From the human T2T-CHM13v2.0 reference genome, Homo sapiens: a stretch of 64,000 nucleotides of DNA. Both the position numbers and the translations under genes were made by a program. Shown here in pieces: positions 1 to 64,000 of the stretch. Every line of letters starts with the position of its first letter. Position 1 is the first letter of the stretch. The notes under the pieces are model-generated. The model saw only the letters and a list, made by a program, of their open reading frames with translations. It had not been told where the DNA came from and ran no database searches. The stretch lies in NCBI GenBank assembly GCA_009914755.4, contig CP068257.2, positions 832,001 to 896,000 of the forward strand. The letters are read 5' to 3'.

Positions 1-913
1 TACACGGCATTGTGACTTATCACTGCACTGATCACCCAGGCGATACAACTCTTGTCTAGGCTCTGCCTACAATGGTCTTGTGACATATCTCTGCACTGAT
101 CACCCAGGTGATATAACTCTTCTCTAGGATCTGACCACGGGGTGCTTTGTGAAATATCCCTGCAATGATCACCCAGGTGATATACCACTTGCCAAGGCTC
201 TGCTTACAGGGGCATTGCAATGTATCTCTGCACTGATCACCTAGGTCTTGTAGCTATTTTCTAGGATCTGCCTACAGGGTGCTTTGTGACGTGTCCCAGC
301 AAAGATTACCCAGGTGATGTACCTCTCACCAAGGCTCTGCCTACAGGCACATTGCGATATATCTCTGCACTGATCACCTAGGTCATGTAACTTTTGTCTA
401 GGCTCTACCTACGATGGTATTGTGACATATCTCTGCACTAATCATCCAAGTGATGTAACACTTGTCTAGGATGTGCCTAAATTAACTTTTTGACATAACC
501 CTGTACTGATCATCCAGGTGATGGGGCTTTTGTCTAGGCTCTGCCTAAGGGGGCATTGTGACATATTTGTGCATTGATCACCCAGGTGGCGAACTCTTCT
601 CTCGGATCTGCCTATGGGGGCATTGTGAGAAATCTCTGCACTGATAACCCAGGTGATGTAACTGTTGTGTAACCTCTGCCTACAGGGGAATTGTGAGAGA
701 TCTCCCCACTGATTACCCAAGTGATGTAACCATTGTCCAGGCTTTGCGTACAGGGGGCTTTGTGACATACCTTTGCACTGATCACCCAGGTGATGTAACA
801 CATCTAAGTTCGGCCTAAAGGAGCTTTGTGACACATCTCTGCACTGATCACTTAGGTGATGTAACACTTTTATAATCACTGCCTACAGGGAATTTTGACA
901 AATCTCTGCACTG

Positions 914-927
914 ATCACCTAGGTGAT
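914..927. other. Perfect 14-bp palindrome ATCACCTAGGTGAT (AvrII site at its centre), the variant form of the core in monomers 4, 6, 13 and 14 of each HOR
   Basis: read directly at 911-930 (ctgatcacctaggtgatgta). Confidence 0.8.
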
Positions 928-1450
928 GTAACTCTTGTCTACCCTCTGTCCAACGGGGCATTGTGAAATATCTCAGCACTGAACACCCAGGTGATTCAAC
1001 TCTTGACTAGGAACTGCCTACAGAGGTTATTGTGAAATATCTCTGCACTGATAAACTAGGTGGTGTAACCCTTGTCCAAGCTCTGCCTACAGGGGCGTTT
1101 CCACATATCCCTGAACTGATGACAAAGGTGATGTAACTCTTGCCTAGGCTTTGCCTACAGGGACATTGGACATATATCTGCACTGATCACCCAGGAGATG
1201 CAACTCTTGCCTAGGCTTTGCCTACAGGGTACTCTGTGACATATCTCTTCAATGACCACTCATGTGATGCATCTCTTGCCTAGGCTTTGCCAACAGGGGA
1301 CATTGTGACATATCTCTGCACTGATCTCCCTGGTACTGTAACTTTAGTCTAGGCTCTGGCTACACGGCATTGTGACATATCACTGCACTGATCAACCAGG
1401 TTATATAACTCTTGTATAGGCTCTGCCTACAGGGGGCTTGTGACCTACCT

Positions 1451-1519
1451 CTGCACTGATCACCCAGGTGATATAACTCTTCTCTAGGATCTGCCTACAG
1501 GGTGCTTTGTGACATATCC
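1451..1519. repeat. Representative single monomer (69 bp), monomer 22 of HOR unit 1, close to the array consensus
   Basis: ctgcactgat begins at 1451 and again at 1520. Confidence 0.85.
1457..1472. other. Example of the conserved per-monomer dyad core TGATCACCCAGGTGAT. It has arms ATCACC/GGTGAT and contains the E-box CAGGTG plus CCAGG and a BclI site. It recurs about 29 times per HOR and about 940 times in the window.
   Basis: read directly; ATCACC is the reverse complement of GGTGAT. Confidence 0.8.
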
Positions 1520-1973
1520 CTGCACTGATCACCCAGGTGACCTAACTCTGGTCTAAGCTCTGCCTAAAGGGGCATTGTGACAGATCTCTGCACTGATCAC
1601 TCAGGTGATGTAACTATTGTCTAGGCTCTGCTTAAAGGGGCCTTGTCACATATCCCTGCACTGATCACCCAGGTGATGTAACTCTTGTCTAGGCTCTGCT
1701 TCCAGGGCATATTGTGACATAACTATGCACTGATCACCTTAGTGATTTAACACTTGTGTAGGCTCGGCCTACAGAGGAATCTTGACATATCTCTGAACTG
1801 TTAAACGAGGTGATTTAACTCTTGTCTAGGCTGTGCCCACAGGGGGATTGAGACATATCTCTGCACTGATCCCGAGGTGATCCAACTCTTGCCTGGTCTC
1901 TGCCTACTGGGGACATTGTGACATATCTCTGCACTGATCTCCCAGGTGCTGTAAATTTTGTCTAGGCTCTGGC

Positions 1974-3946
1974 TACACGGCATTGTGACTTATCACTGCA
2001 CTGATCACCCAGGCGATACAACTATTGTCTAGGCTCTGCCTACAATGGTCTTGTGACATATCTCTGCACTGATCACCCAGGTGATATAACTCTTCTCTAG
2101 GATCTGACCACGGGGTGCTTTGTGAAATATCCCTGCAATGAGCACCCAGGTGATATACCACTTGCCAAGGCTCTGCTTACAGGGGCATTGCAATGTATCT
2201 CTGCACTGATCACCTAGGTCTTGTAGCTATTTTCTAGGATCTGCCTACAGGGGGCTTTGTGACGTGTCCCAGCAAGGATTACCCAGGTGATGTACCTCTC
2301 ATCAAGGCTCTGCCTACAGGCACATTGCGATATATCTCTGCACTGATCACCTAGGTCACGTAACTTTTGTCTAGGCTCTACCTACGATGGTATTGTGACA
2401 TATCTCTGCACTAATCATCCAAGTGATGTAACACTTGTCTAGGATGTGCCTAAATTAACTTTTTGACATAACCCTGTACTGATCATCCAGGTGATGGGGC
2501 TTTTGTCTAGGCTCTGCCTAAGGGGGCATTGTGACATATTTGTGCATTGATCACCCAGGTGGCGAACTCTTCTCTCGGATCTGCCTATGGGGGCATTGTG
2601 AGAAATCTCTGCACTGATCACCCAGGTGATGTAACTGTTGTGTAACCTCTGCCTACAGGGGAATTGTGAGAGATCTCCCCACTGATTACCCAAGTGATGT
2701 AACCATTGTCCAGGCTTTGCGTACAGGGGGCTTTGTGACATACCTTTGCACTGATCACCCAGGTGATGTAACACATCTAAGTTCGGCCTAAAGGAGCTTT
2801 GTGACACATCTCTGCACTGATCACTTAGGTGATGTAACACTTTTATAATCACTGCCTACAGGGAATTTTGACAAATCTCTGCACTGATCACCTAGGTGAT
2901 GTAACTCTTGTCTACCCTCTGTCCAACGGGGCATTGTGAAATATCTCAGCACTGAACACCCAGGTGATTCAACTCTTGACTAGGAACTGCCTACAGAGGT
3001 TATTGTGAAATATCTCTGCACTGATAAACTAGGTGGTGTAACCCTTGTCCAAGCTCTGCCTACAGGGGCGTTTCCACATATCCCTGAACTGATGACAAAG
3101 GTGATGTAACTCTTGCCTAGGCTTTGCCTACAGGGACATTGGACATATATCTGCACTGATCACCCAGGAGATGCAACTCTTGCCTAGGCTTTGCCTACAG
3201 GGTACTCTGTGACATATCTCTTCAATGACCACTCATGTGATGCATCTCTTGCCTAGGCTTTGCCAACAGGGGACATTGTGACATATCTCTGCACTGATCT
3301 CCCTGGTACTGTAACTTTAGTCTAGGCTCTGGCTACACGGCATTGTGACATATCACTGCACTGATCAACCAGGTTATATAACTCTTGTATAGGCTCTGCC
3401 TACAGGGGGCTTGTGACCTACCTCTGCACTGATCACCCAGGTGATATAACTCTTCTCTAGGATCTGCCTACAGGGTGCTTTGTGACATATCCCTGCACTG
3501 ATCACCCAGGTGACCTAACTCTGGTCTAAGCTCTGCCTAAAGGGGCATTGTGACAGATCTCTGCACTGATCACTCAGGTGATGTAACTATTGTCTAGGCT
3601 CTGCTTAAAGGGGCCTTGTCACATATCCCTGCACTGATCACCCAGGTGATGTAACTCTTGTCTAGGCTCTGCTTCCAGGGCATATTGTGACATAACTATG
3701 CACTGATCACCTTAGTGATTTAACACTTGTGTAGGCTCGGCCTACAGAGGAATCTTGACATATCTCTGAACTGTTAAACGAGGTGATTTAACTCTTGTCT
3801 AGGCTGTGCCCACAGGGGGATTGAGACATATCTCTGCACTGATCCCGAGGTGATCCAACTCTTGCCTGGTCTCTGCCTACTGGGGACATTGTGACATATC
3901 TCTGCACTGATCTCCCAGGTGCTGTAAATTTTGTCTAGGCTCTGGC
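1974..3946. repeat. HOR unit 2 (A), 1973 bp
   Basis: tacacgg at 1974; ORF-track peptides repeat at +1973. Confidence 0.9.
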
Positions 3947-5919
3947 TACACGGCATTGTGACTTATCACTGCACTGATCACCCAGGCGATACAACTATTG
4001 TCTAGGCTCTGCCTACAATGGTCTTGTGACATATCTCTGCACTGATCACCCAGGTGATATAACTCTTCTCTAGGATCTGACCACGGGGTGCTTTGTGAAA
4101 TATCCCTGCAATGAGCACCCAGGTGATATACCACTTGCCAAGGCTCTGCTTACAGGGGCATTGCAATGTATCTCTGCACTGATCACCTAGGTCTTGTAGC
4201 TATTTTCTAGGATCTGCCTACAGGGGGCTTTGTGACGTGTCCCAGCAAGGATTACCCAGGTGATGTACCTCTCATCAAGGCTCTGCCTACAGGCACATTG
4301 CGATATATCTCTGCACTGATCACCTAGGTCACGTAACTTTTGTCTAGGCTCTACCTACGATGGTATTGTGACATATCTCTGCACTAATCATCCAAGTGAT
4401 GTAACACTTGTCTAGGATGTGCCTAAATTAACTTTTTGACATAACCCTGTACTGATCATCCAGGTGATGGGGCTTTTGTCTAGGCTCTGCCTAAGGGGGC
4501 ATTGTGACATATTTGTGCATTGATCACCCAGGTGGCGAACTCTTCTCTCGGATCTGCCTATGGGGGCATTGTGAGAAATCTCTGCACTGATCACCCAGGT
4601 GATGTAACTGTTGTGTAACCTCTGCCTACAGGGGAATTGTGAGAGATCTCCCCACTGATTACCCAAGTGATGTAACCATTGTCTAGGCTTTGCGTACAGG
4701 GGGCTTTGTGACATACCTTTGCACTGATCACCCAGGTGATGTAACACATCTAAGTTCGGCCTAAAGGAGCTTTGTGACACATCTCTGCACTGATCACTTA
4801 GGTGATGTAACACTTTTATAATCACTGCCTACAGGGAATTTTGACAAATCTCTGCACTGATCACCTAGGTGATGTAACTCTTGTCTACCCTCTGTCCAAC
4901 GGGGCATTGTGAAATATCTCAGCACTGAACACCCAGGTGATTCAACTCTTGACTAGGAACTGCCTACAGAGGTTATTGTGAAATATCTCTGCACTGATAA
5001 ACTAGGTGGTGTAACCCTTGTCCAAGCTCTGCCTACAGGGGCGTTTCCACATATCCCTGAACTGATGACAAAGGTGATGTAACTCTTGCCTAGGCTTTGC
5101 CTCCAGGGACATTGGACATATATCTGCACTGATCACCCAGGTGATGCAACTCTTGCCTAGGCTTTGCCTACAGGGTACTCTGTGACATATCTCTTCAATG
5201 ACCACTCATGTGATGCATCTCTTGCCTAGGCTTTGCCAACAGGGGACATTGTGACATATCTCTGCACTGATCTCCCTGGTACTGTAACTTTAGTCTAGGC
5301 TCTGGCTACACAGCATTGTGACATATCACTGCACTGATCAACCAGGTTATATAACTCTTGTATAGGCTCTGCCTACAGGGGGCTTGTGACCTACCTCTGC
5401 ACTGATCACCCAGGTGATATAACTCTTCTCTAGGATCTGCCTACAGGGTGCTTTGTGACATATCCCTGCACTGATCACCCAGGTGACCTAACTCTGGTCT
5501 AAGCTCTGCCTAAAGGGGCATTGTGACAGATCTCTGCACTGATCACTCAGGTGATGTAACTATTGTCTAGGCTCTGCTTAAAGGGGCCTTGTCACATATC
5601 CCTGCACTGATCACCCAGGTGATGTAACTCTTGTCTAGGCTCTGCTTCCAGGGCATATTGTGACATAACTATGCACTGATCGCCTTAGTGATTTAACACT
5701 TGTGTAGGCTCGGCCTACAGAGGAATCTTGACATATCTCTGCACTGTTAAACGAGGTGATTTAACTCTTGTCTAGGCTGTGCCCACAGGGGGATTGAGAC
5801 ATATCTCTGCACTGATCCCCAGGTGATCCAACTCTTGCCTGGTCTCTGCCTACTGTGGACATTGTGACATATCTCTGCACTGATCTCCCAGGTGCTGTAA
5901 ATTTTGTCTAGGCTCTGGC
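3947..5919. repeat. HOR unit 3 (A), 1973 bp
   Basis: tacacgg at 3947; ORF periodicity. Confidence 0.9.
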
Positions 5920-7891
5920 TACACGGCATTGTGACTTATCACTGCACTGATCACCCAGGCGATACAACTCTTGTCTAGGCTCTGCCTACAATGGTCTTGT
6001 GATATATCTCTGCACTGATCACCCAGGTGATATAACTCTTCTCTAGGATCTGACCACGGGGTGCTTTGTGACATATCCCTGCAATGATCACCCAGGTGAT
6101 ATACCACTTGCCAAGGCTCTGCTTACAGGGGCATTGCAATGTATCTCTGCACTGATCACCTAGGTCTTGTAGCTATTTTCTAGGATCTGCCTACAGGGTG
6201 CTTTGTGACGGGTACCAGCAAGGATTACCCAGGTGATGTACCTCTCATCAAGGCTCTGCCTACAGGCACATTGCGATATATCTCTGCACTGATCACCAAG
6301 GTCACGTAACTTTCGTCTAGGCTCTACCTACGATGGTATTGTGACATATCTCTGCACTAATCATCCAAGTGATGTAACACTTGTCTAGGATGTGCCTAAA
6401 TTAACTTTTTGACATAACCCTGTACTGATCATCCAGGTGATGGGGCTTTTGTCTAGGCTCTGCCTAAGGGGGCATTGTGACATATTTCTGCATTGATCAC
6501 CCAGGTGGCGAACTCTTCTCTCGGATCTGCCTATGGGGGCATTGGGAGAAATCTCTGCACTGATCACCCAGGTGATGTAACTGTTGTGTAACCTCTGCCT
6601 ACAGGGGAATTGTGAGAGATCTCCCCACTGATTACCCAAGTGATGTAACCATTGTCTAGGCTTTGCGTACAGGGGGCTTTGTGACATACCTTTGCACTGA
6701 TCAACCAGGTGATGTAACACATCTAAGTTCGGCCTAAAGGAGCTTTGTGACACATATCTGCACTGATCACTTAGGTGATGTAACACTTTTATAAGCACTG
6801 CCTACAGGGAATTTTGACAAATCTCTGCACTGATCACCTAGGTGATGTAACTCTTGTCTACCCTCTGTCCAACGGGGCATTGTGAAATATCTCAGCACTG
6901 AACACCCAGGTGATTCAACTCTTGACTAGGAACTGCCTACAGAGGTTATTGTGAAATATCTCTGCACTGATAAACTAGGTGGTGTAACCCTTGTCCAAGC
7001 TCTGCCTACAGGGGCGTTTCCACATATCCCTGAACTGATGACAAAGGTGATGTAACTCTTGCCTAGGCTTTGCCTACAGGGGCATTGGACATATATCTGT
7101 ACTGATCACCCAGGTGATGCAACTCTTGCCTAGGCTTTGCCTACAGGGGACACTGTGACATATCTCTTCAATGATCACTCATGTGATGCATCTCTTGCCT
7201 AGGCTTTGACAACAGGGGACATTGTGACATATCTCTGCACTGATCTCCCTGGTACTGTAACTTTAGTCTAGGCTCTGGCTACACGGCATTGTGACATATC
7301 ACTGCACTGATCAACCAGGTGATATAACTCTTGTATAGGCTCTGCCTACAGGGGGCTTGTGACCTACCTCTGCACTGATCACCCAGGTGATATAACTCTT
7401 CTCTAGGATCTGCCTACAGGGTGCTTTGTGACATATCCCTGCACTGATCACCCAGGTGACTAACTCTGGTCTAAGCTCTGCCTAAAGGGGCATTGTGACA
7501 GATCTCTGCACTGATCACTCAGGTGATGTAACTATTGTCTAGGCTCTGCTTAAAGGGGCCTTGTCACATATCCCTGCACTGATCACCCAGGTGATGTAAC
7601 TCTTGTCTAGGCTCTGCTTCCAGGGCATATTGTGACATAACTATGCACTGATCACCTTAGTGATTTAACACTTGTGTAGGCTCGGCCTACAGAGGAATCT
7701 TGACATATCTCTGAACTGTTAAACGAGGTGATTTAACTCTTGTCTAGGCTGTGCCCACAGGGGGATTGAGACATATCTCTGCACTGATCCCGAGGTGATC
7801 CAACTCTTGCCTGGTCTCTGCCTACTGGGGACATTGTGACATATCTCTGCACTGATCTCCCAGGTGCTGTAAATTTTGTCTAGGCTCTGGC
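5920..7891. repeat. HOR unit 4 (A), 1972 bp, with a 1-bp deletion near 7459 (gtgactaactc instead of gtgacctaactc)
   Basis: tacacgg at 5920 and 7892; variant read directly. Confidence 0.85.
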
Positions 7892-9864
7892 TACACGGCA
7901 TTGTGACTTATCACTGCACTGATCACCCAGGCGATACAACTCTTGTCTAGGCTCTGCCTACAATGGTCTTGTGACATATCTCTGCACTGATCACCCAGGT
8001 GATATAACTCTTCTCTAGGATCTGACCACGGGGTGCTTTGTGAAATATCCCTGCAATGATCACCCAGGTGATATACCACTTGCCAAGGCTCTGCTTACAG
8101 GGGCATTGCAATGTATCTCTGCACTGATCACCTAGGTCTTGTAGCTATTTTCTAGGATCTGCCTACAGGGTGCTTTGTGACGTGTCCCAGCAAAGATTAC
8201 CCAGGTGATGTACCTCTCACCAAGGCTCTGCCTACAGGCACATTGCGATATATCTCTGCACTGATCACCTAGGTCATGTAACTTTTGTCTAGGCTCTACC
8301 TACGATGGTATTGTGACATATCTCTGCACTAATCATCCAAGTGATGTAACACTTGTCTAGGATGTGCCTAAATTAACTTTTTGACATAACCCTGTACTGA
8401 TCATCCAGGTGATGGGGCTTTTGTCTAGGCTCTGCCTAAGGGGGCATTGTGACATATTTGTGCATTGATCACCCAGGTGGCGAACTCTTCTCTCGGATCT
8501 GCCTATGGGGGCATTGTGAGAAATCTCTGCACTGATAACCCAGGTGATGTAACTGTTGTGTAACCTCTGCCTACAGGGGAATTGTGAGAGATCTCCCCAC
8601 TGATTACCCAAGTGATGTAACCATTGTCCAGGCTTTGCGTACAGGGGGCTTTGTGACATACCTTTGCACTGATCACCCAGGTGATGTAACACATCTAAGT
8701 TCGGCCTAAAGGAGCTTTGTGACACATCTCTGCACTGATCACTTAGGTGATGTAACACTTTTATAATCACTGCCTACAGGGAATTTTGACAAATCTCTGC
8801 ACTGATCACCTAGGTGATGTAACTCTTGTCTACCCTCTGTCCAACGGGGCATTGTGAAATATCTCAGCACTGAACACCCAGGTGATTCAACTCTTGACTA
8901 GGAACTGCCTACAGAGGTTATTGTGAAATATCTCTGCACTGATAAACTAGGTGGTGTAACCCTTGTCCAAGCTCTGCCTACAGGGGCGTTTCCACATATC
9001 CCTGAACTGATGACAAAGGTGATGTAACTCTTGCCTAGGCTTTGCCTACAGGGACATTGGACATATATCTGCACTGATCACCCAGGTGATGCAACTCTTG
9101 CCTAGGCTTTGCCTACAGGGTACTCTGTGACATATCTCTTCAATGACCACTCATGTGATGCATCTCTTGCCTAGGCTTTGCCAACAGGGGACATTGTGAC
9201 ATATCTCTGCACTGATCTCCCTGGTACTGTAACTTTAGTCTAGGCTCTGGCTACACGGCATTGTGACATATCACTGCACTGATCAACCAGGTTATATAAC
9301 TCTTGTATAGGCTCTGCCTACAGGGGGCTTGTGACCTACCTCTGCACTGATCACCCAGGTGATATAACTCTTCTCTAGGATCTGCCTACAGGGTGCTTTG
9401 TGACATATCCCTGCACTGATCACCCAGGTGACCTAACTCTGGTCTAAGCTCTGCCTAAAGGGGCATTGTGACAGATCTCTGCACTGATCACTCAGGTGAT
9501 GTAACTATTGTCTAGGCTCTGCTTAAAGGGGCCTTGTCACATATCCCTGCACTGATCACCCAGGTGATGTAACTCTTGTCTAGGCTCTGCTTCCAGGGCA
9601 TATTGTGACATAACTATGCACTGATCACCTTAGTGATTTAACACTTGTGTAGGCTCGGCCTACAGAGGAATCTTGACATATCTCTGAACTGTTAAACGAG
9701 GTGATTTAACTCTTGTCTAGGCTGTGCCCACAGGGGGATTGAGACATATCTCTGCACTGATCCCGAGGTGATCCAACTCTTGCCTGGTCTCTGCCTACTG
9801 GGGACATTGTGACATATCTCTGCACTGATCTCCCAGGTGCTGTAAATTTTGTCTAGGCTCTGGC
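7892..9864. repeat. HOR unit 5 (A), 1973 bp; near-identical to unit 1 (shares ctgataaccc at 8531 and ccattgtccagg at 8631)
   Basis: 137-aa and 63-aa ORF peptides identical to those at 466 and 612. Confidence 0.9.
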
Positions 9865-11837
9865 TACACGGCATTGTGACTTATCACTGCACTGATCACC
9901 CAGGCGATACAACTCTTGTCTAGGCTCTGCCTACAATGGTCTTGTGACATATCTCTGCACTGATCACCCAGGTGATATAACTCTTCTCTAGGATCTGACC
10001 ACGGGGTGCTTTGTGAAATATCCCTGCAATGAGCACCCAGGTGATATACCACTTGCCAAGGCTCTGCTTACAGGGGCATTGCAATGTATCTCTGCACTGA
10101 TCACCTAGGTCTTGTAGCTATTTTCTAGGATCTGCCTACAGGGGGCTTTGTGACGTGTCCCAGCAAGGATTACCCAGGTGATGTACCTCTCATCAAGGCT
10201 CTGCCTACAGGCACATTGCGATATATCTCTGCACTGATCACCTAGGTCACGTAACTTTTGTCTAGGCTCTACCTACGATGGTATTGTGACATATCTCTGC
10301 ACTAATCATCCAAGTGATGTAACACTTGTCTAGGATGTGCCTAAATTAACTTTTTGACATAACCCTGTACTGATCATCCAGGTGATGGGGCTTTTGTCTA
10401 GGCTCTGCCTAAGGGGGCATTGTGACATATTTGTGCATTGATCACCCAGGTGGCGAACTCTTCTCTCGGATCTGCCTATGGGGGCATTGTGAGAAATCTC
10501 TGCACTGATCACCCAGGTGATGTAACTGTTGTGTAACCTCTGCCTACAGGGGAATTGTGAGAGATCTCCCCACTGATTACCCAAGTGATGTAACCATTGT
10601 CTAGGCTTTGCGTACAGGGGGCTTTGTGACATACCTTTGCACTGATCACCCAGGTGATGTAACACATCTAAGTTCGGCCTAAAGGAGCTTTGTGACACAT
10701 CTCTGCACTGATCACTTAGGTGATGTAACACTTTTATAATCACTGCCTACAGGGAATTTTGACAAATCTCTGCACTGATCACCTAGGTGATGTAACTCTT
10801 GTCTACCCTCTGTCCAACGGGGCATTGTGAAATATCTCAGCACTGAACACCCAGGTGATTCAACTCTTGACTAGGAACTGCCTACAGAGGTTATTGTGAA
10901 ATATCTCTGCACTGATAAACTAGGTGGTGTAACCCTTGTCCAAGCTCTGCCTACAGGGGCGTTTCCACATATCCCTGAACTGATGACAAAGGTGATGTAA
11001 CTCTTGCCTAGGCTTTGCCTCCAGGGACATTGGACATATATCTGCACTGATCACCCAGGTGATGCAACTCTTGCCTAGGCTTTGCCTACAGGGTACTCTG
11101 TGACATATCTCTTCAATGACCACTCATGTGATGCATCTCTTGCCTAGGCTTTGCCAACAGGGGACATTGTGACATATCTCTGCACTGATCTCCCTGGTAC
11201 TGTAACTTTAGTCTAGGCTCTGGCTACACAGCATTGTGACATATCACTGCACTGATCAACCAGGTTATATAACTCTTGTATAGGCTCTGCCTACAGGGGG
11301 CTTGTGACCTACCTCTGCACTGATCACCCAGGTGATATAACTCTTCTCTAGGATCTGCCTACAGGGTGCTTTGTGACATATCCCTGCACTGATCACCCAG
11401 GTGACCTAACTCTGGTCTAAGCTCTGCCTAAAGGGGCATTGTGACAGATCTCTGCACTGATCACTCAGGTGATGTAACTATTGTCTAGGCTCTGCTTAAA
11501 GGGGCCTTGTCACATATCCCTGCACTGATCACCCAGGTGATGTAACTCTTGTCTAGGCTCTGCTTCCAGGGCATATTGTGACATAACTATGCACTGATCA
11601 CCTTAGTGATTTAACACTTGTGTAGGCTCGGCCTACAGAGGAATCTTGACATATCTCTGCACTGTTAAACGAGGTGATTTAACTCTTGTCTAGGCTGTGC
11701 CCACAGGGGGATTGAGACATATCTCTGCACTGATCCCCAGGTGATCCAACTCTTGCCTGGTCTCTGCCTACTGTGGACATTGTGACATATCTCTGCACTG
11801 ATCTCCCAGGTGCTGTAAATTTTGTCTAGGCTCTGGC
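9865..11837. repeat. HOR unit 6 (A), 1973 bp; most similar to unit 3
   Basis: peptides at 10330 and 10920 are identical to those at 4412 and 5002. Confidence 0.9.
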
Positions 11838-13810
11838 TACACGGCATTGTGACTTATCACTGCACTGATCACCCAGGCGATACAACTCTTGTCTAGGCTC
11901 TGCCTACAATGGTCTTGTGATATATCTCTGCACTGATCACCCAGGTGATATAACTCTTCTCTAGGATCTGACCACGGGGTGCTTTGTGACATATCCCTGC
12001 AATGATCACCCAGGTGATATACCACTTGCCAAGGCTCTGCTTACAGGGGCATTGCAATGTATCTCTGCACTGATCACCTAGGTCTTGTAGCTATTTTCTA
12101 GGATCTGCCTACAGGGTGCTTTGTGACGGGTACCAGCAAGGATTACCCAGGTGATGTACCTCTCATCAAGGCTCTGCCTACAGGCACATTGCGATATATC
12201 TCTGCACTGATCACCAAGGTCACGTAACTTTCGTCTAGGCTCTACCTACGATGGTATTGTGACATATCTCTGCACTAATCATCCAAGTGATGTAACACTT
12301 GTCTAGGATGTGCCTAAATTAACTTTTTGACATAACCCTGTACTGATCATCCAGGTGATGGGGCTTTTGTCTAGGCTCTGCCTAAGGGGGCATTGTGACA
12401 TATTTCTGCATTGATCACCCAGGTGGCGAACTCTTCTCTCGGATCTGCCTATGGGGGCATTGGGAGAAATCTCTGCACTGATCACCCAGGTGATGTAACT
12501 GTTGTGTAACCTCTGCCTACAGGGGAATTGTGAGAGATCTCCCCACTGATTACCCAAGTGATGTAACCATTGTCTAGGCTTTGCGTACAGGGGGCTTTGT
12601 GACATACCTTTGCACTGATCAACCAGGTGATGTAACACATCTAAGTTCGGCCTAAAGGAGCTTTGTGACACATCTCTGCACTGATCACTTAGGTGATGTA
12701 ACACTTTTATAATCACTGCCTACAGGGAATTTTGACAAATCTCTGCACTGATCACCTAGGTGATGTAACTCTTGTCTACCCTCTGTCCAACAGGGCATTG
12801 TGAAATATCTCAGGACTGAACACCCAGGTGATTCAACTCTTGACTAGGAACTGCCTACAGAGGTTATTGTGAAATATCTCTGCACTGATAAACTAGGTGG
12901 TGTAACCCTTGTCCAAGCTCTGCCTACAGGGGCGTTTCCACATATCCCTGAACTGATGACAAAGGTGATGTAACTCTTGCCTAGGCTTTGCCTACAGGGG
13001 CATTGGACATATATCTGCACTGATCACCCAGGTGATGCAACTCTTGCCTAGGCTTTGCCTACAGGGGACACTGTGACATATCTCTTCAATGATCACTCAT
13101 GTGATGCATCTCTTGCCTAGGCTTTGACAACAGGGGACATTGTGACATATCTCTGCACTGATCTCCCTGGTACTGTAACTTTAGTCTAGGCTCTGGCTAC
13201 ACGGCATTGTGACATATCACTGCACTGATCAACCAGGTGATATAACTCTTGTATAGGCTCTGCCTACAGGGGGCTTGTGACCTACCTCTGCACTGATCAC
13301 CCAGGTGATATAACTCTTCTCTAGGATCTGCCTACAGGGTGCTTTGTGACATATCCCTGCACTGATCACCCAGGTGACCTAACTCTGGTCTAAGCTCTGC
13401 CTAAAGGGGCATTGTGACAGATCTCTGCACTGATCACTCAGGTGATGTAACTATTGTCTAGGCTCTGCTTAAAGGGGCCTTGTCACATATCCCTGCACTG
13501 ATCACCCAGGTGATGTAACTCTTGTCTAGGCTCTGCTTCCAGGGCATATTGTGACATAACTATGCACTGATCACCTTAGTGATTTAACACTTGTGTAGGC
13601 TCGGCCTACAGAGGAATCTTGACATATCTCTGCACTGTTAAACGAGGTGATTTAACTCTTGTCTAGGCTGTGCCCACAGGGGGATTGAGACATATCTCTG
13701 CACTGATCCCGAGGTGATCCAACTCTTGCCTGGTCTCTGCCTACTGGGGACATTGTGACATATCTCTGCACTGATCTCCCAGGTGCTGTAAATTTTGTCT
13801 AGGCTCTGGC
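11838..13810. repeat. HOR unit 7 (A), 1973 bp; most similar to unit 4
   Basis: peptides at 11665, 11837 and 12303 match 5747, 5919 and 6385. Confidence 0.9.
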
Positions 13811-15783
13811 TACACGGCATTGTGACTTATCACTGCACTGATCACCCAGGCGATACAACTCTTGTCTAGGCTCTGCCTACAATGGTCTTGTGACATATCT
13901 CTGCACTGATCACCCAGGTGATATAACTCTTCTCTAGGATCTGACCACGGGGTGCTTTGTGACATATCCCTGCAATGATCACCCAGGTGATATACCACTT
14001 GCCAAGGCTCTGCTTACAGGGGCATTGCAATGTATCTCTGCACTGATCACCTAGGTCTTGTAGCTATTTTCTAGGATCTGCCTACAGGGTGCTTTCTGAC
14101 GTTTCCCCGCAAGGATTACCCAGGTGATGTACCTCTCATCAAGGCTCTGCCTACAGGCACATTGCGATATATCTCTGCACTGATCACCTAGGTCACGTAA
14201 CTTTTGTCTAGGCTCTACCTACGATGGTATTGTGACATATCTCTGCACTAATCATCCAAGTGATGTAACTCTTGTCTAGGATGTGCCTAAATTAACTTTT
14301 TGACATAACCCTGTACTGATCATCCAGGTGATGGGGCTTTTGTCTAGGCTCTGCCTAAGGGGGCATTGTGACATATTTGTGCATTGATCACCCAGGTGGC
14401 GAACTCTTCTCTCGGATCTGCCTATGGGGGCATTGTGAGAAATCTCTGCAGTGATCACCAGGGTGATGTAACTGTTGTGTAACCTCTGCCTACAGGGGAA
14501 TTGTGAGAGATCTCCCCACTGATTACCCAAGTGATGTAACCATTGTCTAGGCTTTGCGTACAGGGGGCTTTGTGACATACCTTTGCACTGATCACCCAGG
14601 TGATGTAACACATCTAAGTTCGGCCTAAAGGAGCTTTGTGACACATCTCTGCACTGATCACTTAGGTGATGTAACACTTTTATAATCACTGCCTACAGGG
14701 AATTTTGACAAATCTCTGCACTGATCACCTAGGTGATGTAACTCTTGTCTACCCTCTGTCCAACGGGGCATTGTGAAATATCTCAGCACTGAACACCCAG
14801 GTGATTCAACTCTTGACTAGGAACTGCCTACAGAGGTTATTGTGAAATATCTCTGCACTGATAAACTAGGTGGTGTAACCCTTGTCCAAGCTCTGCCTAC
14901 AGGGGCGTTTCCACATATCCCTGAACTGATGACAAAGGTGATGTAACTCTTACCTAGGCTTTGCCTACAGGGACATTGGACATATATCTGCACTGATCAC
15001 CCAGGTGATGCAACTCTTGCCTAGGCTTTGCCTACAGGGTACTCTGTGACATATCTCTTCAATGATCACTCATGTGATGCATCTCTTGCCTAGGCTTTGC
15101 CAACAGGGGACATTGTGACATATCTCTGCACTGATCTCCCTGGTACTGTAACTTTAGTCTAGGCTCTGGCTACACGGCATTGTGACATATCACTGCACTG
15201 ATCAACCAGGTGATATAACTCTTGTATAGGCTCTGCCTACAGGGGGCTTGTGACCTACCTCTGCACTGATCACCCAGGTGATATAACTCTTCTCTAGGAT
15301 CTGCCTACAGGGTGCTTTGTGACATATCCCTGCACTGATCACCCAGGTGACCTAACTCTGGTCTAAGCTCTGCCTAAAGGGGCATTGTGACAGATCTCTG
15401 CACTGATCACTCAGGTGATGTAACTATTGTCTAGGCTCTGCTTAAAGGGGCCTTGTCACATATCCCTGCACTGATCACCCAGGTGATGTAACTCTTGTCT
15501 AGGCTCTGCTTCCAGGGCATATTGTGACATAACTATGCACTGATCACCTTAGTGATTTAACACTTGTGTAGGCTCGGCCTACAGAGGAATCTTGACATAT
15601 CTCTGAACTGTTAAACGAGGTGATTTAACTCTTGTCTAGGCTGTGCCCACAGGGGGATTGAGACATATCTCTGCACTGATCCCGAGGTGATCCAACTCTT
15701 GCCTGGTCTCTGCCTACTGGGGACATTGTGACATATCTCTGCACTGATCTCCCAGGTGCTGTAAATTTTGTCTAGGCTCTGGC
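13811..15783. repeat. HOR unit 8 (A), 1973 bp
   Basis: periodicity and the tacacgg phase motif. Confidence 0.9.
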
Positions 15784-17756
15784 TACACGGCATTGTGACA
15801 TATCACTGCACTGATCACCCAGGCGATACAACTCTTGTCTAGGCTCTGCCTACAATGGTCTTGTGATATATCTCTGCACTGATCACCCAGGTGATATAAC
15901 TCTTCTCTAGGATCTGACCACGGGATGCTTTGTGACATATCCCTGCAATGATCACCCAGGTGATATACCATTTGCCAAGGCTCTGCTTACAGGGGCATTG
16001 CAATGTATCTCTGCACTGATCACCTAGGTCTTGTAGCTATTTTCTAGGATCTGCCTACAGGGTGCTTTGTGACGGGTCCCAGCAAGGATTACCCAGGTGA
16101 TGTACCTCTCATCAAGGCTCTGCCTACAGGCACATTGCGATATATCTCTGCACTGATCACTTAGGTCACGTAACTTTCGTCTAGGCTCTACCTACGATGG
16201 TATTGTGACATATCTCTGCACTAATCATCCAAGTGATGTAACACTTGTCTAGGATGTGCCTAAATTAACTTTTTGACATAACCCTGTACTGATCATCCAG
16301 GTGAAGGGGCTTTTGTCTAGGCTCTGCCTAAGGGGGCATTGTGACATATTTCTGCATTGATCACCCAGGTGGCGAACTCTTCTCTCGGATCTGCCTATGG
16401 GGGCATTGTGAGAAATCTCTGCACTGATCACCCAGGTGATGTAACTGTTGTGTAACCTCTGCCTACAGGGGAATTGTGAGAGATCTCCCCACTGATTACA
16501 CAAGTGATGTAACCATTGTCTAGGCTTTGCGTACAGGGGGCTTTGTGACATACCTTTGCACTGATCACCCAGGTGATGTAACACATCTAAGTTCGGCCTA
16601 AAGGAGCTTTGTGACACATCTCTGCACTAATCACTTAGGTGATGTAACACTTTTATAATCACTGCCTACAGGGAATTTTGACAAATCTCTGCACTGATCA
16701 CCTAGGTGATGTAACGCTTGTCTACCCTCTGTCCAACGGGGCATTGTGAAATATCTCAGGACTGAACACCCAGGTGATTCAACTCTTGACTAGGAACTGC
16801 CTACAGAGGTTATTGTGAAATATCTCTGCACTGATAAACTAGGTGGTGTAAACCTTGTCCAAGCTCTGCCCACAGGGGCGTTTCCACATATCCCTGAACT
16901 GATGACAAAGGTGATGTAACTCTTACCTAGGATTTGCCTACAGGGGCATTGGACATATATCTGCACTGATCACCCAGGTGATGCAACTCTTGCCTAGGCT
17001 TTGCCTACAGGGGACACTGTGACATATCTCTTCAATGATCACTCATGTGATGCATCTCTTGCCTAGGCTTTGCCAACAGGGGACATTGTGACATATCTCT
17101 GCACTGATCTCCCTGGTACTGTAACTTTAGTCTAGGCTCTGGCTACACGGCATTGTGACATATCACTGCACTGATCAACCAGGTGATATAACTCTTGTAT
17201 AGGCTCTGCCTAGAGGGGGCTTGTGACCTACCTCTGCACTGATCACCCAGGTGATATAACTCTTCTCTAGGATCTGCCTACAGGGTGCTTTGTGACATAT
17301 CCCTGCACTGATCACCCAGGTGACCTAACTCTGGTCTAAGCTCTGCCTAAAGGGGCATTGTGACAGATCTCTGCACTGATCACTCAGGTGATGTAACTAT
17401 TGTCTAGGCTCTGCTTAAAGGGACCTTGTCACATATCCCTGCACTGATCACCCAGGTGATGTAACTCTTGTCTAGGCTCTGCTTCCTGGGCATATTGTGA
17501 CATAGCTATGCACTGATCACCTTAGTGATGTAACACTTGTGTAGGCTCGGCCTACAGAGGAATCTTGACATATCTCTTCACTGTTAAACGAGGTGATTTA
17601 ACTCTTGTCTAGGCTGTGCCCACAGGGGGATTGAGACATATCTCTGCACTGATCCCGAGGTGATCCAACTCTTGCCTGGTCTCTGCCTACTGGGGACATT
17701 GTGACATATCTCTGCACTGATCTCCCAGGTGCTGTAAATTTTGTCTAGGCTCTGGC
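15784..17756. repeat. HOR unit 9 (A), 1973 bp
   Basis: periodicity. Confidence 0.9.
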
Positions 17757-19729
17757 TACACGGCATTGTGACTTATCACTGCACTGATCACCCAGGCGAT
17801 ACAACTCTTGTCTAGGCTCTGCCTACAATGGTCTTGTGACATATCTCTGCACTGATCACCCAGGTGATATAACTCTTCTCTAGGATCTGACCACGGGGTG
17901 CTTTGTGACATATCCCTGCAATGATCACCCAGGTGATATACCACTTGCCAAGGCTCTGCTTACAGGGGCATTGCAATGTATCTCTGCACTGATCACCTAG
18001 ATCTTTTAGCTATTTTCTAGGATCTGCCTACAGGGTGCTTTGTGACGGGTCCCAGCAAGGATTACCCAGGTGATGTACCTCTCATCAAGGCTCTGCCTAC
18101 AGGCACATTGCGATATATCTCTGCACTGATCACCTAGGTCACGTAACTTTCGTCTAGGCTCTACCTATGATGGTATTGTGACATATCTCTGCACTAATCA
18201 TCCAAGTGATGTAACACTTGTCTAGGATGTGCCTAAATTAACTTTTTGACATAACCCTGTACTGATCATCCAGGTGATGGGGCTTTTGTCTAGGCTCTGC
18301 CTAAGGGGGCATTGTGACATATTTCTGCATTGATCACCCAGGTGGCGAACTCTTCTCTCGGATCTGCCTATGGGGGCATTGTGAGAAATCTCTGCACTGA
18401 TCACCCAGGTGATGTAACTGTTGTGTAACCTCTGCCTACAGGGGAATTGTGAGAGATCTCCCCACTGATTACCCAAGTGATGTAACCATTGTCTAGGCTT
18501 TGCGTACAGGGGGCTTTGTGACATACCTTTGCACTGACCAACCAGGTGATGTAACACATCTAATTTCGGCCTAAAGGAGCTTTGTGACACATCTCTGCAC
18601 TGATCACTTAGGTGATGTAACACTTTTATAATCACTGCCTACAGGGAATTTTGACAAATCTCTGCACTGATCACCTAGGTGATGTAACTCTTGTCTACCC
18701 TCTGTCCAACGGGGCATTGTGAAATATCTCAGGACTGAACACCCAGGTGATTCAACTCTTGACTAGGAACTGCCTACAGAGGTTATTGTGAAATATCTCT
18801 GCACTGATAAACTAGGTGGTGTAACCCTTGTCCAAGCTCTGCCTACAGGGGCGTTTCCACATATCCCTGAACTGATGACAAAGGTGATGTAACTCTTGCC
18901 TAGGCTTTGCCTACAGGGGCATTGGACATATATCTGCACTGATCACCCAGGTGATGCAACTCTTGCCTAGGCTTTGCCTACAGGGGACACTGTGACATAT
19001 CTCTTCAGTGATCACTCATGTGATGCATCTCTTGCCTAGGCTTTGCCAACAGGGGACATTGTGGCATATCTCTGCACTGATCTCCCTGGTACTGTAACTT
19101 TATTCTAGGCTCTGGCTACACGGCATTGTGACATATCACTGCACTGATCAACCAGGTGATATAACTCTTGTATAGGCTCTGCCTACAGGGGGCTTGTGAC
19201 CTACCTCTGCACTGATCACCCAGGTGATATAACTCTTCTCTAGGATCTGCCTACAGGGTGCTTTGTGACATATCCCTGCACTGATCACCCAGGTGACCTA
19301 ACTCTGGTCTAAGCTCTGCCTAAAGGGGCATTGTGACAGATCTCTGCACTGATCACTCAGGTGATGTAACTATTGTCTAGGCTCTGCTTAAAGGGGCCTT
19401 GTCACATATCCCTGCACTGATCACCCAGGTGATGTAACTCTTGTCTAGGCTCTGCTTCCAGGGCATATTGTGACATAACTATGCACTGATCACCTTAGTG
19501 ATTTAACACTTGTGTAGGCTCGGCCTACAGAGGAATCTTGACATATCTCTGCACTGTTAAACGAGGTGATTTAACTCTTGTCTAGGCTGTGCCCACAGGG
19601 GGATTGAGACATATCTCTGCACTGATCCCGAGGTGATCCAACTCTTGCCTGGTCTCTGCCTACTGGGGACATTGTGACATATCTCTGCACTGATCTCCCA
19701 GGTGCTGTAAATTTTGTCTAGGCTCTGGC
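17757..19729. repeat. HOR unit 10 (A), 1973 bp
   Basis: periodicity. Confidence 0.9.
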
Positions 19730-63548: not shown

Positions 63549-64000
63549 TACACGGCATTGCGACATATCACTGCACTGATCACCCAGGTGATATAAATCT
63601 TGTCTAGGCTCTGCCTAAAATGGCCTTGTGACATATCTCTGCACTGATCACCCAGGTGATGTAACTCTTCTCTAGGATATGACCACAGGGTGCTTTGTGG
63701 CATTGCCCTGCAATGATCACCCAGGTGGTATACCATTTGCCAACGCTCTGCCTACAGGGGCATTGCAATGTATCTCTGCACTGATCACCTAGGTCTTGTA
63801 ACTTTTTTCTTCGATCTGCCCTCAGGGTGCTTTTTGACGTATCCCAGCAAGGATTACCCAGGTGATGTACGTCTCATCAAGGCTCTGCCTACAGGCACAT
63901 TGCGATGTATCTCTGCACTGATCACCTAGGTCATGTAACTTTTGTCTAGGCTCTGCCTACGATGACATTGTGACATATCTCTGCACTAATCATCCAAGTG
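63549..64000. repeat. HOR unit 33 (B), partial, first 452 bp only; array continues beyond window
   Basis: tacacgg at 63549; sequence mirrors 55653-56104 and 59601-60052. Confidence 0.85.

What the first reader, a model, noticed from the sequence alone, without database searches (positions are those of the whole stretch)
1457..1472. Conserved dyad-symmetric core in every monomer, a candidate protein-binding box
- About 27 bp (CTGCACTGATCACCCAGGTGATGTAAC) is strongly conserved across all 29 monomer positions.
- The remaining about 41 bp of each monomer diverges freely.
- The conserved part is an inverted repeat ATCACC-N2-GGTGAT, a perfect 14-bp palindrome ATCACCTAGGTGAT in four monomers per HOR (e.g. 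914-927).
- It embeds an E-box CAGGTG.
- Such position-specific conservation inside a satellite resembles the CENP-B box of alpha satellite.
- Possible explanations: a sequence-specific centromere or heterochromatin protein binds here, or the core forms hairpin or cruciform structures. Both are speculation from sequence alone.
Basis: partly seen in the sequence, partly recalled or inferred. Interest (0 to 1): 0.6.

Follow-up and report, generated by a model that had tools for sequence, protein, structure and literature searches.

The report
Conserved segment of human beta satellite
The flagged motif is the slightly better conserved, Sau3A-site-bearing part of the well-known human 68-bp beta satellite repeat. 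Its short inverted repeat shows no sign of being maintained as a symmetric protein-binding or hairpin-forming element, so the finding is largely ordinary.

Summary
The whole window is one array of 68-bp beta satellite (Sau3A/BSR family). It is organised as a 29-monomer, about 1,973-bp higher-order repeat (HOR) and is 98% identical to human-derived contigs.

- The 6+6 dyad ATCACC-N2-GGTGAT is intact in 8 of 29 HOR positions (245 of 941 monomers).
- The perfect 14-bp palindrome occurs in one HOR position, not four.
- The "arm" does not diverge freely. Mean per-site agreement with consensus is 0.89 for the core and 0.85 for the arm.

The shallow gradient is real and family-wide. It reappears in about 1,800 unique monomers from other arrays (p about 0.004, or 0.025 after correcting for window scanning). 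Its peak lies on CTGCACTGATCA, to the left of the dyad centre.

I found nothing that treats the dyad as a unit:
- The two arms decay independently.
- Compensatory changes are not in excess (23 observed, 37 expected).
- The hairpin is only -2.1 kcal/mol (z = -0.1).
- There is no box-present/box-absent bimodality, and no CENP-B box.
- Recent variants are spread evenly between core and arm.

Conserved sub-regions of the beta satellite unit were already reported in 1989, 2012 and 2015. Protein binding to the core cannot be excluded, but it is untested.

The parts
6..64000 (+). Continuous array of 68-bp beta satellite (Sau3A/BSR family) monomers, about 941 copies, filling the whole window
   Evidence: TRF finds period 68 with 940.5 copies and nhmmer finds 941 hits. 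The published BSR primers CACTGATAACCCAGGTGA and TCCCCTGTAGGCAGAGA match the consensus. Human-contaminant contigs are up to 98.25% identical.
1956..3928 (+). One complete canonical higher-order repeat copy, 29 monomers A..c, 1,973 bp
   Evidence: The autocorrelation peak is at 1,973 bp.
1410..1477 (+). Monomer V of the first HOR copy, which contains the flagged site
   Evidence: Monomer coordinates and sequence.
1451..1477 (+). The 27-bp 'core' in this monomer: CTGCACTGATCACCCAGGTGATATAAC
   Evidence: Sequence. Mean per-site conservation is 0.888 in the window's 29 monomers and 0.894 in other arrays.
1451..1462 (+). CTGCACTGATCA, the best-conserved stretch of the family (about 93% per site). 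It contains the Sau3A site GATC (1458-1461) and the BclI palindrome TGATCA (1457-1462).
   Evidence: Sliding-window minima of entropy and divergence. GATC at this position is intact in 82% and TGATCA in 69% of monomers from other arrays.
1459..1472 (.). The dyad ATCACC-CA-GGTGAT: 6-bp arms with a 2-bp spacer. It includes the E-box CAGGTG at 1465-1470.
   Evidence: It is intact in 8 of 29 HOR positions, 245 of 941 monomers, and 34% of monomers from other arrays.
914..927 (.). The perfect 14-bp palindrome ATCACCTAGGTGAT, in monomer N, the only HOR position that has it
   Evidence: There are 31 copies in the window. It occurs in 2.4% of monomers from other arrays.
21071..21137 (+). U/V hybrid monomer at the junction of a 28-monomer HOR variant that lacks V. 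The exchange point is bounded to TGCACTGATCA, inside the core.
   Evidence: the monomer is U-like up to the core but carries V's C in ATCACCC.
52637..52703 (+). R/O hybrid monomer at the junction of a PQR duplication. The exchange point is bounded to CACCCAGGTGAT, inside the dyad.
   Evidence: R-specific sites are kept through GATCACC, followed by O's tail GATTCAAC.

Best explanation
The window is a human beta satellite (Sau3A/BSR) higher-order repeat array. The flagged 27 bp is that family's already described "conserved Sau3A-containing part".

The inverted repeat ATCACC-N2-GGTGAT and its embedded CAGGTG belong to the ancestral 68-bp consensus. Every monomer inherited them by amplification, and they are now decaying one arm at a time. 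The array does not maintain them as a symmetric binding site or a hairpin.

The core is only about 1.4-1.5-fold less diverged than the rest, and the minimum lies on CTGCACTGATCA rather than on the dyad. I infer, but have not shown, that this shallow family-wide gradient is mainly a by-product of how the satellite is homogenised. Out-of-register exchange and gene conversion between non-equivalent monomers resolve in the longest tracts of shared identity, which lie in the core. That keeps re-homogenising this segment, so the effect reinforces itself. New mutations meanwhile arise evenly along the monomer.

Shown: the identity of the satellite, the size and location of the gradient, the absence of dyad-specific signals, and the even spread of recent variants. 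Inferred: the homogenisation mechanism.

On the confidence figure: the identity and the lack of dyad-specific function are near certain. The stated value reflects the inferred homogenisation mechanism.
For: **Identity**
- 68-bp period and 29-monomer HOR.
- Published BSR primers match the consensus.
- Human-derived contigs are 96.5-98.3% identical.

**Already described**
- Conserved sub-regions shown by a per-position frequency plot, similar to a 1989 result (PMC3488192).

**Gradient is shallow and off-centre**
- 0.888 against 0.847 in the window and 0.894 against 0.845 in other arrays.
- The peak is on CTGCACTGAT/ACTGATCA.
- The per-column profiles of the window and of other arrays correlate with rho = 0.76.

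**The dyad is not a unit**
- Arm intactness is independent.
- Compensatory changes are not in excess: 23 against 36.6 expected.
- The hairpin is -2.1 kcal/mol, z = -0.14.
- Mismatch counts show dispersion of 1.24, within the control range of 0.85-1.38.

**Mutation input is even**
- 139 of 368 recent variant events fall in the core. This fits a uniform spread (p = 0.46) and rejects the long-term share of 31% (p = 0.008). For singletons the rejection is p = 0.0014.

**Exchange in the core**
- Two of the three HOR rearrangement junction types examined in the window could be bounded, and both lie inside the core.
- Adjacent monomers R, S and T have near-identical arms but very different cores. That is a mosaic pattern expected from segmental exchange.
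Against: - Only two junctions could be mapped. The core is 40% of the monomer, so both falling there has a chance probability of about 0.16.
- The even spread of recent variants is what weak purifying selection would also give, because young variants have not yet been filtered.
- The gradient survives a correction for G/C content (core effect -0.05, t = -2.9) and recurs in all arrays sampled. Constraint from a bound protein would predict the same.
- The other arrays were found with a core-sequence pattern, which biases the estimate upward. The bounded effect is 0.872 against 0.842, p = 0.06.
- Part of the shared column profile may simply be ancient polymorphism between monomer subtypes.
Confidence: 0.55

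Rival explanations
1. The core is a real binding box for a sequence-specific chromatin protein, such as a KRAB zinc-finger protein or another asymmetric binder that contacts roughly CTGCACTGATCACC. An E-box binder (ZEB, SNAI or E-protein class) on CAGGTG is less likely. Array-level selection for a sufficient density of sites would then keep this segment closer to consensus.
For: - Family-wide lower divergence in the core, not explained by base composition or by the distribution of new variants.
- Single beta satellite units form specific complexes with nuclear extract and act as enhancers in reporter assays. The authors suggested the conserved part may explain why all units tested were active (PMC4787827).
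- ZNF555/DiPRO1 ChIP regions are enriched in satellites (PMC11319797).
Against: - The effect is small. Only 26-34% of monomers keep the dyad and 44-52% keep CAGGTG.
- There is no co-conservation of the six E-box bases or of the two half-sites beyond independence.
- There is no present/absent bimodality.
- The ZNF555 complex was reported as specific to one unit and only partly competed by other units, which points to the variable part.
- Published DiPRO1 motifs match the consensus at best 7 of 12 bases, and that best match is in the arm.
- No paper in the searched library links beta satellite to an E-box.
Confidence: 0.25
2. The inverted repeat extrudes as a hairpin or cruciform, for example during replication or under supercoiling, and that structure is the selected feature.
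For: A 6+6 inverted repeat with a 2-nt spacer exists in the consensus. Its chance probability for one 68-bp unit is 0.037.
Against: - Only a 5-bp stem with a 4-nt loop can form. It is -2.1 kcal/mol, no better than shuffled sequence (z = -0.14 for the CA spacer, -0.53 for the TA spacer). The whole monomer gives z about 0 on both strands.
- Pairing is not preserved by compensatory change: 23 against 36.6 expected.
- The arms are intact together no more often than chance.
- An in vivo ssDNA footprinting study found cruciform motifs negatively correlated with signal. It attributed the beta satellite signal in other apes to G4, Z-DNA and triplex motifs (bioRxiv 10.1101/2025.11.03.686349).
Confidence: 0.03
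3. The gradient is purely historical. A few ancient monomer subtypes happened to differ mostly in the arm, and all present arrays inherited those high-frequency alternative states. No constraint or biased homogenisation is involved.
For: - The most variable columns carry one or two common alternative bases shared by all arrays, for example A/T at 0.65/0.23 in GGGGCA, C/T/G at the spacer, and C/A at 0.75/0.18.
- The window and other arrays share the same column profile, rho = 0.76.
- Recent variants are spread evenly.
Against: - The rank-based test, which is not driven by a few columns, is still significant (p = 0.004).
- A/T and G/C columns are each better conserved in the core than in the arm: 0.914 against 0.881, and 0.875 against 0.808.
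Confidence: 0.15

Closest known systems
Human beta satellite (Sau3A family, RepeatMasker BSR/Beta) and its 'conserved Sau3A-containing part'
   Same: - 68-bp unit with a Sau3A GATC site in most units.
- HOR organisation.
- The consensus matches published BSR primers, and human contigs are up to 98% identical.
- The better conserved segment is the one that contains the Sau3A site, as reported by Kim et al. 2015 (PMC4787827). Giussani et al. 2012 (PMC3488192) reported conserved sub-regions and cite Agresti et al. 1989.
   Different: Nothing essential. I found neither remark in the searched literature, and here they show no signal of their own.
CENP-B box of alpha satellite
   Same: A short motif at a fixed position inside a primate satellite monomer, present in some monomers of a HOR and absent from others.
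   Different: - The 17-bp CENP-B box sequence is absent.
- Beta satellite is pericentromeric or on acrocentric short arms, not the kinetochore-forming array (10.1101/2021.07.12.452052).
- There is no present/absent dichotomy; mismatches are spread as expected for independently decaying sites.
- Intact copies are not regularly spaced in the HOR: positions B, C, J, L, N, R, V and Y.
- No binding protein is known.
ZNF555/DiPRO1 binding to the 4qA beta satellite unit 4qAe
   Same: It is the only reported sequence-specific protein interaction with a single beta satellite monomer (EMSA with mass spectrometry, ChIP and reporter assays, PMC4787827).
   Different: - The complex was described as specific to one unit and only partly competed by other units.
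- The contact site within the 67 bp was not mapped.
- The motifs later derived from ChIP-seq (PMC11319797) do not match this consensus (7 of 12).
E2-box CAGGTG/CACCTG sites of ZEB, SNAI and class I bHLH factors (identification from general knowledge, not tested here)
   Same: The hexamer CAGGTG is in the family consensus, in 15 of 29 HOR positions, and in 43.5% of monomers elsewhere.
   Different: - A 6-bp match has about a 3% chance per unit.
- Its six bases are not co-conserved beyond independence.
- No binding data are available.

Membership tests
Human beta satellite (Sau3A/BSR) | Tandem monomer of about 68 bp | tested here: met
   TRF finds period 68 with 940.5 copies. Monomer lengths are 67-69 bp.
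Human beta satellite (Sau3A/BSR) | Sau3A (GATC) site in nearly every unit | tested here: met
   There are 932 GATC in 941 monomers of the window, although some of these lie in arm variants. At the canonical position, GATC is intact in 82% of monomers from other arrays.
Human beta satellite (Sau3A/BSR) | Sequence similarity to published beta satellite sequences | tested here: met
   Primers 4qAe-r CACTGATAACCCAGGTGA and 4qAe-f TCCCCTGTAGGCAGAGA (PMC4787827) align to the consensus with one or two mismatches. Contigs of human origin are 96.5-98.3% identical over 1.2-1.35 kb. I could not obtain a direct comparison with the Dfam/RepeatMasker BSR consensus or with Waye and Willard 1989.
Human beta satellite (Sau3A/BSR) | Multimeric higher-order repeat organisation | tested here: met
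   A 29-monomer, 1,973-bp HOR. Identity is 0.948 at a lag of 29 monomers against about 0.755 otherwise.
CENP-B box | 17-bp motif nTTCGnnnnAnnCGGGn | tested here: not met
   There are no exact matches. One match with 1 mismatch was found in 64 kb, against 0.94 expected by chance.
CENP-B box | Box either intact or replaced (two monomer classes), often alternating along the HOR | tested here: not met
   The mismatch distribution over the dyad window has variance 1.24 times expected, within the control range of 0.85-1.38. Intact positions B, C, J, L, N, R, V and Y are irregular.
CENP-B box | Bound by CENP-B in centromeric alpha satellite | not testable with these tools
   The sequence is beta satellite, not alpha satellite. 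No binding data can be generated here.
Palindromic (homodimer) protein-binding site | Both half-sites conserved together more than expected from each alone | tested here: not met
   In the window the counts are 8 both, 6 left only, 9 right only and 6 neither, with 8.2 expected for both. In other arrays 34.2% have both against 32.7% expected. The odds ratio of 1.28 ranks 47th of 68 among control 6-mer pairs.
Palindromic (homodimer) protein-binding site | Conservation peak centred on the dyad axis | tested here: not met
   The best 8-14-bp windows are ACTGATCA, CTGCACTGAT and CTGCACTGATCACC, to the left of the axis. The spacer C is among the most variable columns (0.65-0.69).
Cruciform/hairpin-forming inverted repeat | Stem markedly more stable than composition-matched sequence | tested here: not met
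   The stem is -2.1 kcal/mol, with z = -0.14 and -0.53. Among 200 shuffles, 71 and 58 fold at least as well.
Cruciform/hairpin-forming inverted repeat | Pairing preserved by compensatory substitutions | tested here: not met
   There are 23 compensated doubles over six pairs against 36.6 expected under independence.
E-box (CANNTG / CAGGTG) transcription-factor site | Hexamer present and retained beyond chance | tested here: inconclusive
   It is present in 15 of 29 positions and in 43.5% of monomers elsewhere. That equals the product of the column frequencies, about 0.42. The chance of the hexamer in one unit is 0.032. Binding is not testable here.
ZNF555/DiPRO1 target site | Match to the published ChIP-seq motifs (CAGAGGCGCACA; GGGTTAGGTTCC) | tested here: not met
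   The best ungapped match is 7 of 12. For CAGAGGCGCACA that match (TACAGGGGCATT) is in the arm.

The most novel reading that the evidence does not exclude
The CTGCACTGATCACC(C/T)AGGTGAT segment is a genuine "beta box". In this reading it is the docking site of a so far unidentified sequence-specific protein, either a zinc-finger protein or an E-box-type factor. That protein would organise heterochromatin or nucleolar association of the acrocentric short arms and pericentromeres, and array-level selection for site density would explain the family-wide conservation peak.
Probability: 0.15. Interest if true: 0.6.

Novelty: already known. Interest (0 to 1): 0.15.

Why it matters
If a specific protein did recognise the core, beta satellite would become the second human satellite with a defined protein-binding box, after alpha satellite and its CENP-B box. 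That would bear on the chromatin of acrocentric short arms, Robertsonian translocation regions and the 4qA allele in FSHD.

As it stands, the result mostly calibrates. A repeated short palindrome in a satellite is one ancestral event copied many times, not many independent observations. The conservation contrast here is modest and has already been published.

Tried and rejected
- **First segmentation attempt:** I set the end-gap scores the wrong way round, so I discarded it and used nhmmer/hmmalign and MAFFT instead.
- **Edge artefact:** hmmalign left false gaps in the first and last two or three columns. I fixed this by re-cutting the monomers in a second phase and merging. The two phases agree, with mean difference 0.011 and r = 0.98.
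- **Sequence-string search of the paper library** for the core: no hits.
- **Waye and Willard 1989:** not held in the library. The supplement of Kim 2015, with the 12-unit alignment, is also not held.
- **Viral contigs:** no match.
- **Mutation-rate explanation rejected:** recent variants fit a uniform spread and reject the long-term gradient. The gradient also survives G/C correction, and the CA/TG (former CpG) term is nil (t = 0.3).
- **Reversions toward consensus:** these are 3-4 times more frequent than expected in both core and arm. I did not interpret this, because retained ancestral states give the same pattern.
- **Mantel test of core against arm distances:** r = 0.07. It is uninformative because the two arm halves are equally uncorrelated, r = 0.10.
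- **CTCF-like reading of the arm (CCTACAGGGGGC):** no match to a degenerate CTCF core in the window.
- **TRF period-33 row at 47577-47679:** spurious, as the sequence there is ordinary monomers.
- **Chromosome of origin:** could not be determined with these tools.

Full report
**What is there**

The whole 64-kb window is one head-to-tail array of a 68-bp unit. TRF reports 6-64000 with 940.5 copies at 75% matches, and a profile search finds 941 monomers of 67-69 bp. Base composition is flat at 47% G+C.

Monomers 29 apart are 94.8% identical, while other lags give about 75.5%. The autocorrelation peak is at 1,973 bp. The array is therefore a 29-monomer higher-order repeat (HOR), present in about 32 copies. 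There are a few structural variants:
- Three 28-monomer copies lack monomer V.
- There is a TUVWXY duplication and a PQR duplication.
- From about 53,047 to the end there is a distinct HOR variant.

**Identity**

The consensus is TCTTGTCTAGGCTCTGCCTACAGGGGCATTGTGACATATCTCTGCACTGATCACCCAGGTGATGTAAC. It carries the Sau3A site GATC, and it matches the published beta satellite (BSR) primers CACTGATAACCCAGGTGA and TCCCCTGTAGGCAGAGA (PMC4787827).

Scanning public collections for the core pattern returned 26 low-coverage contigs in prokaryote assemblies. It also returned at least 120 metagenome contigs, several labelled human skin or oral metagenome. These are human contamination. Two of them are 98.25% and 96.5% identical to the window over 1.2-1.35 kb, which is within the spread among HOR copies of the window itself.

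The window is therefore a human (or very closely related) beta satellite HOR array. This family is a known 68-bp satellite of acrocentric short arms and several pericentromeres (10.1101/2021.07.12.452052; PMC8125562). I could not determine the chromosome.

**Checking the observation**

The coordinates are right. Positions 1457-1472 read TGATCACCCAGGTGAT, and 914-927 read ATCACCTAGGTGAT. The quantitative claims are not right.

I built the consensus of each of the 29 HOR positions and aligned them. The results are:
- The 6+6 dyad is intact in 8 of 29 positions.
- The perfect 14-bp palindrome is in exactly one position (N).
- CAGGTG is in 15 of 29 positions.

In the raw window there are 245 intact dyads among 941 monomers, 31 perfect palindromes and 54 exact 27-mers.

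Mean majority-base frequency is 0.888 in the 27-bp core and 0.847 in the other 41 bp. Mann-Whitney p is about 0.03, a permutation test for the pre-chosen window gives 0.04, and correcting for scanning all 27-bp windows gives 0.11. The arm is therefore far from freely diverging. The best-conserved 10-mer is CTGCACTGAT and the worst stretch is CAGGGGCA, where the G-run varies in length.

**Independent arrays**

From the 146 contigs I extracted about 2,600-2,700 full-length monomers, of which about 1,750-1,800 are unique. Most are only 78-87% identical to the window, so they come from other arrays.

After fixing an alignment edge artefact by cutting the monomers in two phases, the profile is essentially the same. 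The core is 0.894 and the arm 0.845, with Mann-Whitney p = 0.004 and scan-corrected p = 0.025. The peak is on ACTGATCA/CTGCACTGAT at about 93%. The dyad averages 0.897 and the right flank GTAAC averages 0.843. The per-column profile correlates with that of the window's 29 monomers at rho = 0.76.

G/C columns are more variable than A/T columns, but the core effect survives this correction (-0.05, t = -2.9). The contigs were found with a core pattern, so there is ascertainment bias. Dropping one anchor monomer per locus changes nothing (0.886 against 0.844). Dropping every pattern-bearing monomer gives the lower bound of 0.872 against 0.842.

The position-specific gradient is therefore real and family-wide, but shallow, at about 10.6% against 15.5% divergence per site.

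**Is the dyad a functional unit?**

Several tests say no.
- **Independence of the arms.** In the window the counts are 8 both, 6 left only, 9 right only and 6 neither, with 8.2 expected for both. In other arrays both are intact in 34.2% against 32.7% expected. The odds ratio of 1.28 ranks 47th of 68 among control 6-mer pairs with the same spacing.
- **No covariation.** Across the six potential base pairs there are 23 compensated double changes, against 36.6 expected under independence.
- **Weak hairpin.** With a 2-nt spacer, only a 5-bp stem with a 4-nt loop can form. It is -2.1 kcal/mol, with z = -0.14 (CA spacer) or -0.53 (TA spacer) against shuffles. The full monomer folds no better than shuffles on either strand. 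A recent in vivo ssDNA footprinting study found cruciform motifs negatively correlated with signal (10.1101/2025.11.03.686349).
- **No box-present/box-absent dichotomy.** The variance of mismatch counts over the dyad window is 1.24 times the independent-site expectation. Control windows range from 0.85 to 1.38. Intact positions in the HOR are irregular.
- **E-box not co-conserved.** CAGGTG is intact in 43.5% of monomers, which equals the product of its six column frequencies, about 0.42.
- **No CENP-B box.** None is present.
- **Modest chance level.** All copies descend from one unit, so the relevant chance level is that of a single 68-mer. It is 0.037 for a 6+6 inverted repeat with a spacer of 2 or less, 0.13 for a spacer of 10 or less, and 0.032 for CAGGTG/CACCTG. 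These are modest values for features picked out after the fact.

**What makes the gradient?**

Variants that distinguish copies of the same HOR position are young. Of 368 such events, 139 lie in the core (37.8%, against 39.7% for a uniform spread, p = 0.46). Of 184 singletons, 78 lie in the core. Both counts reject the long-term core share of 31% (p = 0.008 and p = 0.0014).

New changes therefore arise evenly along the monomer. This argues against a mutation-rate explanation and shows no ongoing depletion within this array. Weak selection would not be visible on such young variants, however.

Of the three rearrangement junction types examined, two can be bounded, and both lie inside the core:
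- The U/V hybrid monomer at 21071-21137 has its exchange point within TGCACTGATCA.
- The R/O hybrid monomer at 52637-52703 has its exchange point within CACCCAGGTGAT.

Adjacent monomers R, S and T share almost identical arms (distance 0.05-0.07), yet their cores differ at 19-37% of sites. That is a mosaic pattern and the opposite of the claimed rule.

From this I infer that exchange between non-equivalent monomers tends to resolve in the longest shared identity tracts. This would keep the core closer to consensus as a self-reinforcing by-product. With two junctions (chance probability about 0.16) this is an inference, not a demonstration. A weak protein-binding constraint and ancient subtype polymorphism remain viable alternatives.

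**Comparison with what is known**

That some sub-regions of the beta satellite unit are better conserved has been published.
- Kim et al. [quoted passage not shown]
- Giussani et al. 2012 plotted the frequency of the commonest base per position in human and chimpanzee. They noted agreement with their 1989 result and suggested a possible biological role (PMC3488192).
- The only reported protein interaction is ZNF555/DiPRO1 with the 4qA unit 4qAe. That complex was described as specific to one unit and only partly competed by other units, which points to the variable part. The motifs later derived for DiPRO1 match this consensus at best 7 of 12 bases.
- I found no paper linking beta satellite to an E-box, and none that contains the core sequence.

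**Verdict**

The motif and a modest conservation contrast exist, but the contrast is weak, is not centred on the dyad, and the counts given were too high.

Something keeps the Sau3A-containing segment slightly closer to consensus in all arrays. There is no evidence that dyad symmetry, the E-box or a cruciform is what matters, and the analogy with the CENP-B box fails the tests that could be run.

The feature belongs to a known satellite, and its conserved segment is already described. Interest is low.

Noticed in passing
window 21071-21137 and 52637-52703: Two hybrid monomers mark unequal-exchange junctions. One is U/V and gives 28-monomer HOR copies lacking V. The other is R/O and gives a PQR duplication. 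Both exchange points are bounded to the conserved core (TGCACTGATCA and CACCCAGGTGAT). A third junction (Y|T, about 29099-29235) could not be resolved.
   Followed up: partly
window 1138-1342 (monomers R, S, T), recurring every about 1,973 bp: Three adjacent monomers share nearly identical 41-bp arms (distance 0.05-0.07), while their 27-bp cores differ at 19-37% of sites. This is the reverse of the claimed pattern and suggests segmental conversion or mosaic monomers.
   Followed up: partly
window, HOR positions A/B/C against U/V/W (e.g. 1956-2159 against 1343-1546): A~U, B~V and C~W are each other's nearest relatives, so the 29-monomer HOR contains an older internal duplication of at least three monomers.
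   Followed up: no
window about 53047-64000: The last five to six HOR copies are a distinct variant. The monomers at positions A and V are replaced by U-like and B-like variants that are only about 91.5% identical to their nearest class. The window therefore spans a boundary between two HOR haplotype domains.
   Followed up: no
whole window and loci L001-L146: The transition-to-transversion ratio is unusually low. It is about 0.63 for young within-HOR-position variants and about 0.71 for family-wide divergence from consensus, far below the usual human value of about 2. The cause is unexplained. Candidates include conversion between monomers, saturation, or counting shared states rather than independent events.
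   Followed up: no
whole window: CpG is strongly depleted, with an observed/expected ratio of 0.16 (584 CpG in 64 kb). This is consistent with long-term germline methylation of the satellite.
   Followed up: no
loci L001-L026 (e.g. L001 BMRF01000120.1 Actinomadura cremea, L013 CABPVN010000063.1 Campylobacter concisus, L024 Woesearchaeota MAG): Twenty-six species-representative bacterial or archaeal assemblies contain short, low-coverage contigs made of human beta satellite. This is contamination. It bears on preprints that claim wide distribution and horizontal transfer of beta satellite DNA (10.1101/772921, 10.1101/589531).
   Followed up: partly
window 47577-47679: The TRF row with period 33 (56% matches) is spurious. 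The sequence there is ordinary A and B monomers.
   Followed up: yes
arm of the monomer, e.g. window 1428-1441 (GCCTACAGGGGGCT): Some monomers carry CCTACAGGGGGC (24 in the window), which loosely resembles a CTCF core. No match to a degenerate CTCF pattern was found here. A 2026 preprint reports CTCF-motif enrichment in beta satellite on chromosomes 1, 10, 13 and 14 (10.64898/2026.07.18.739380).
   Followed up: partly
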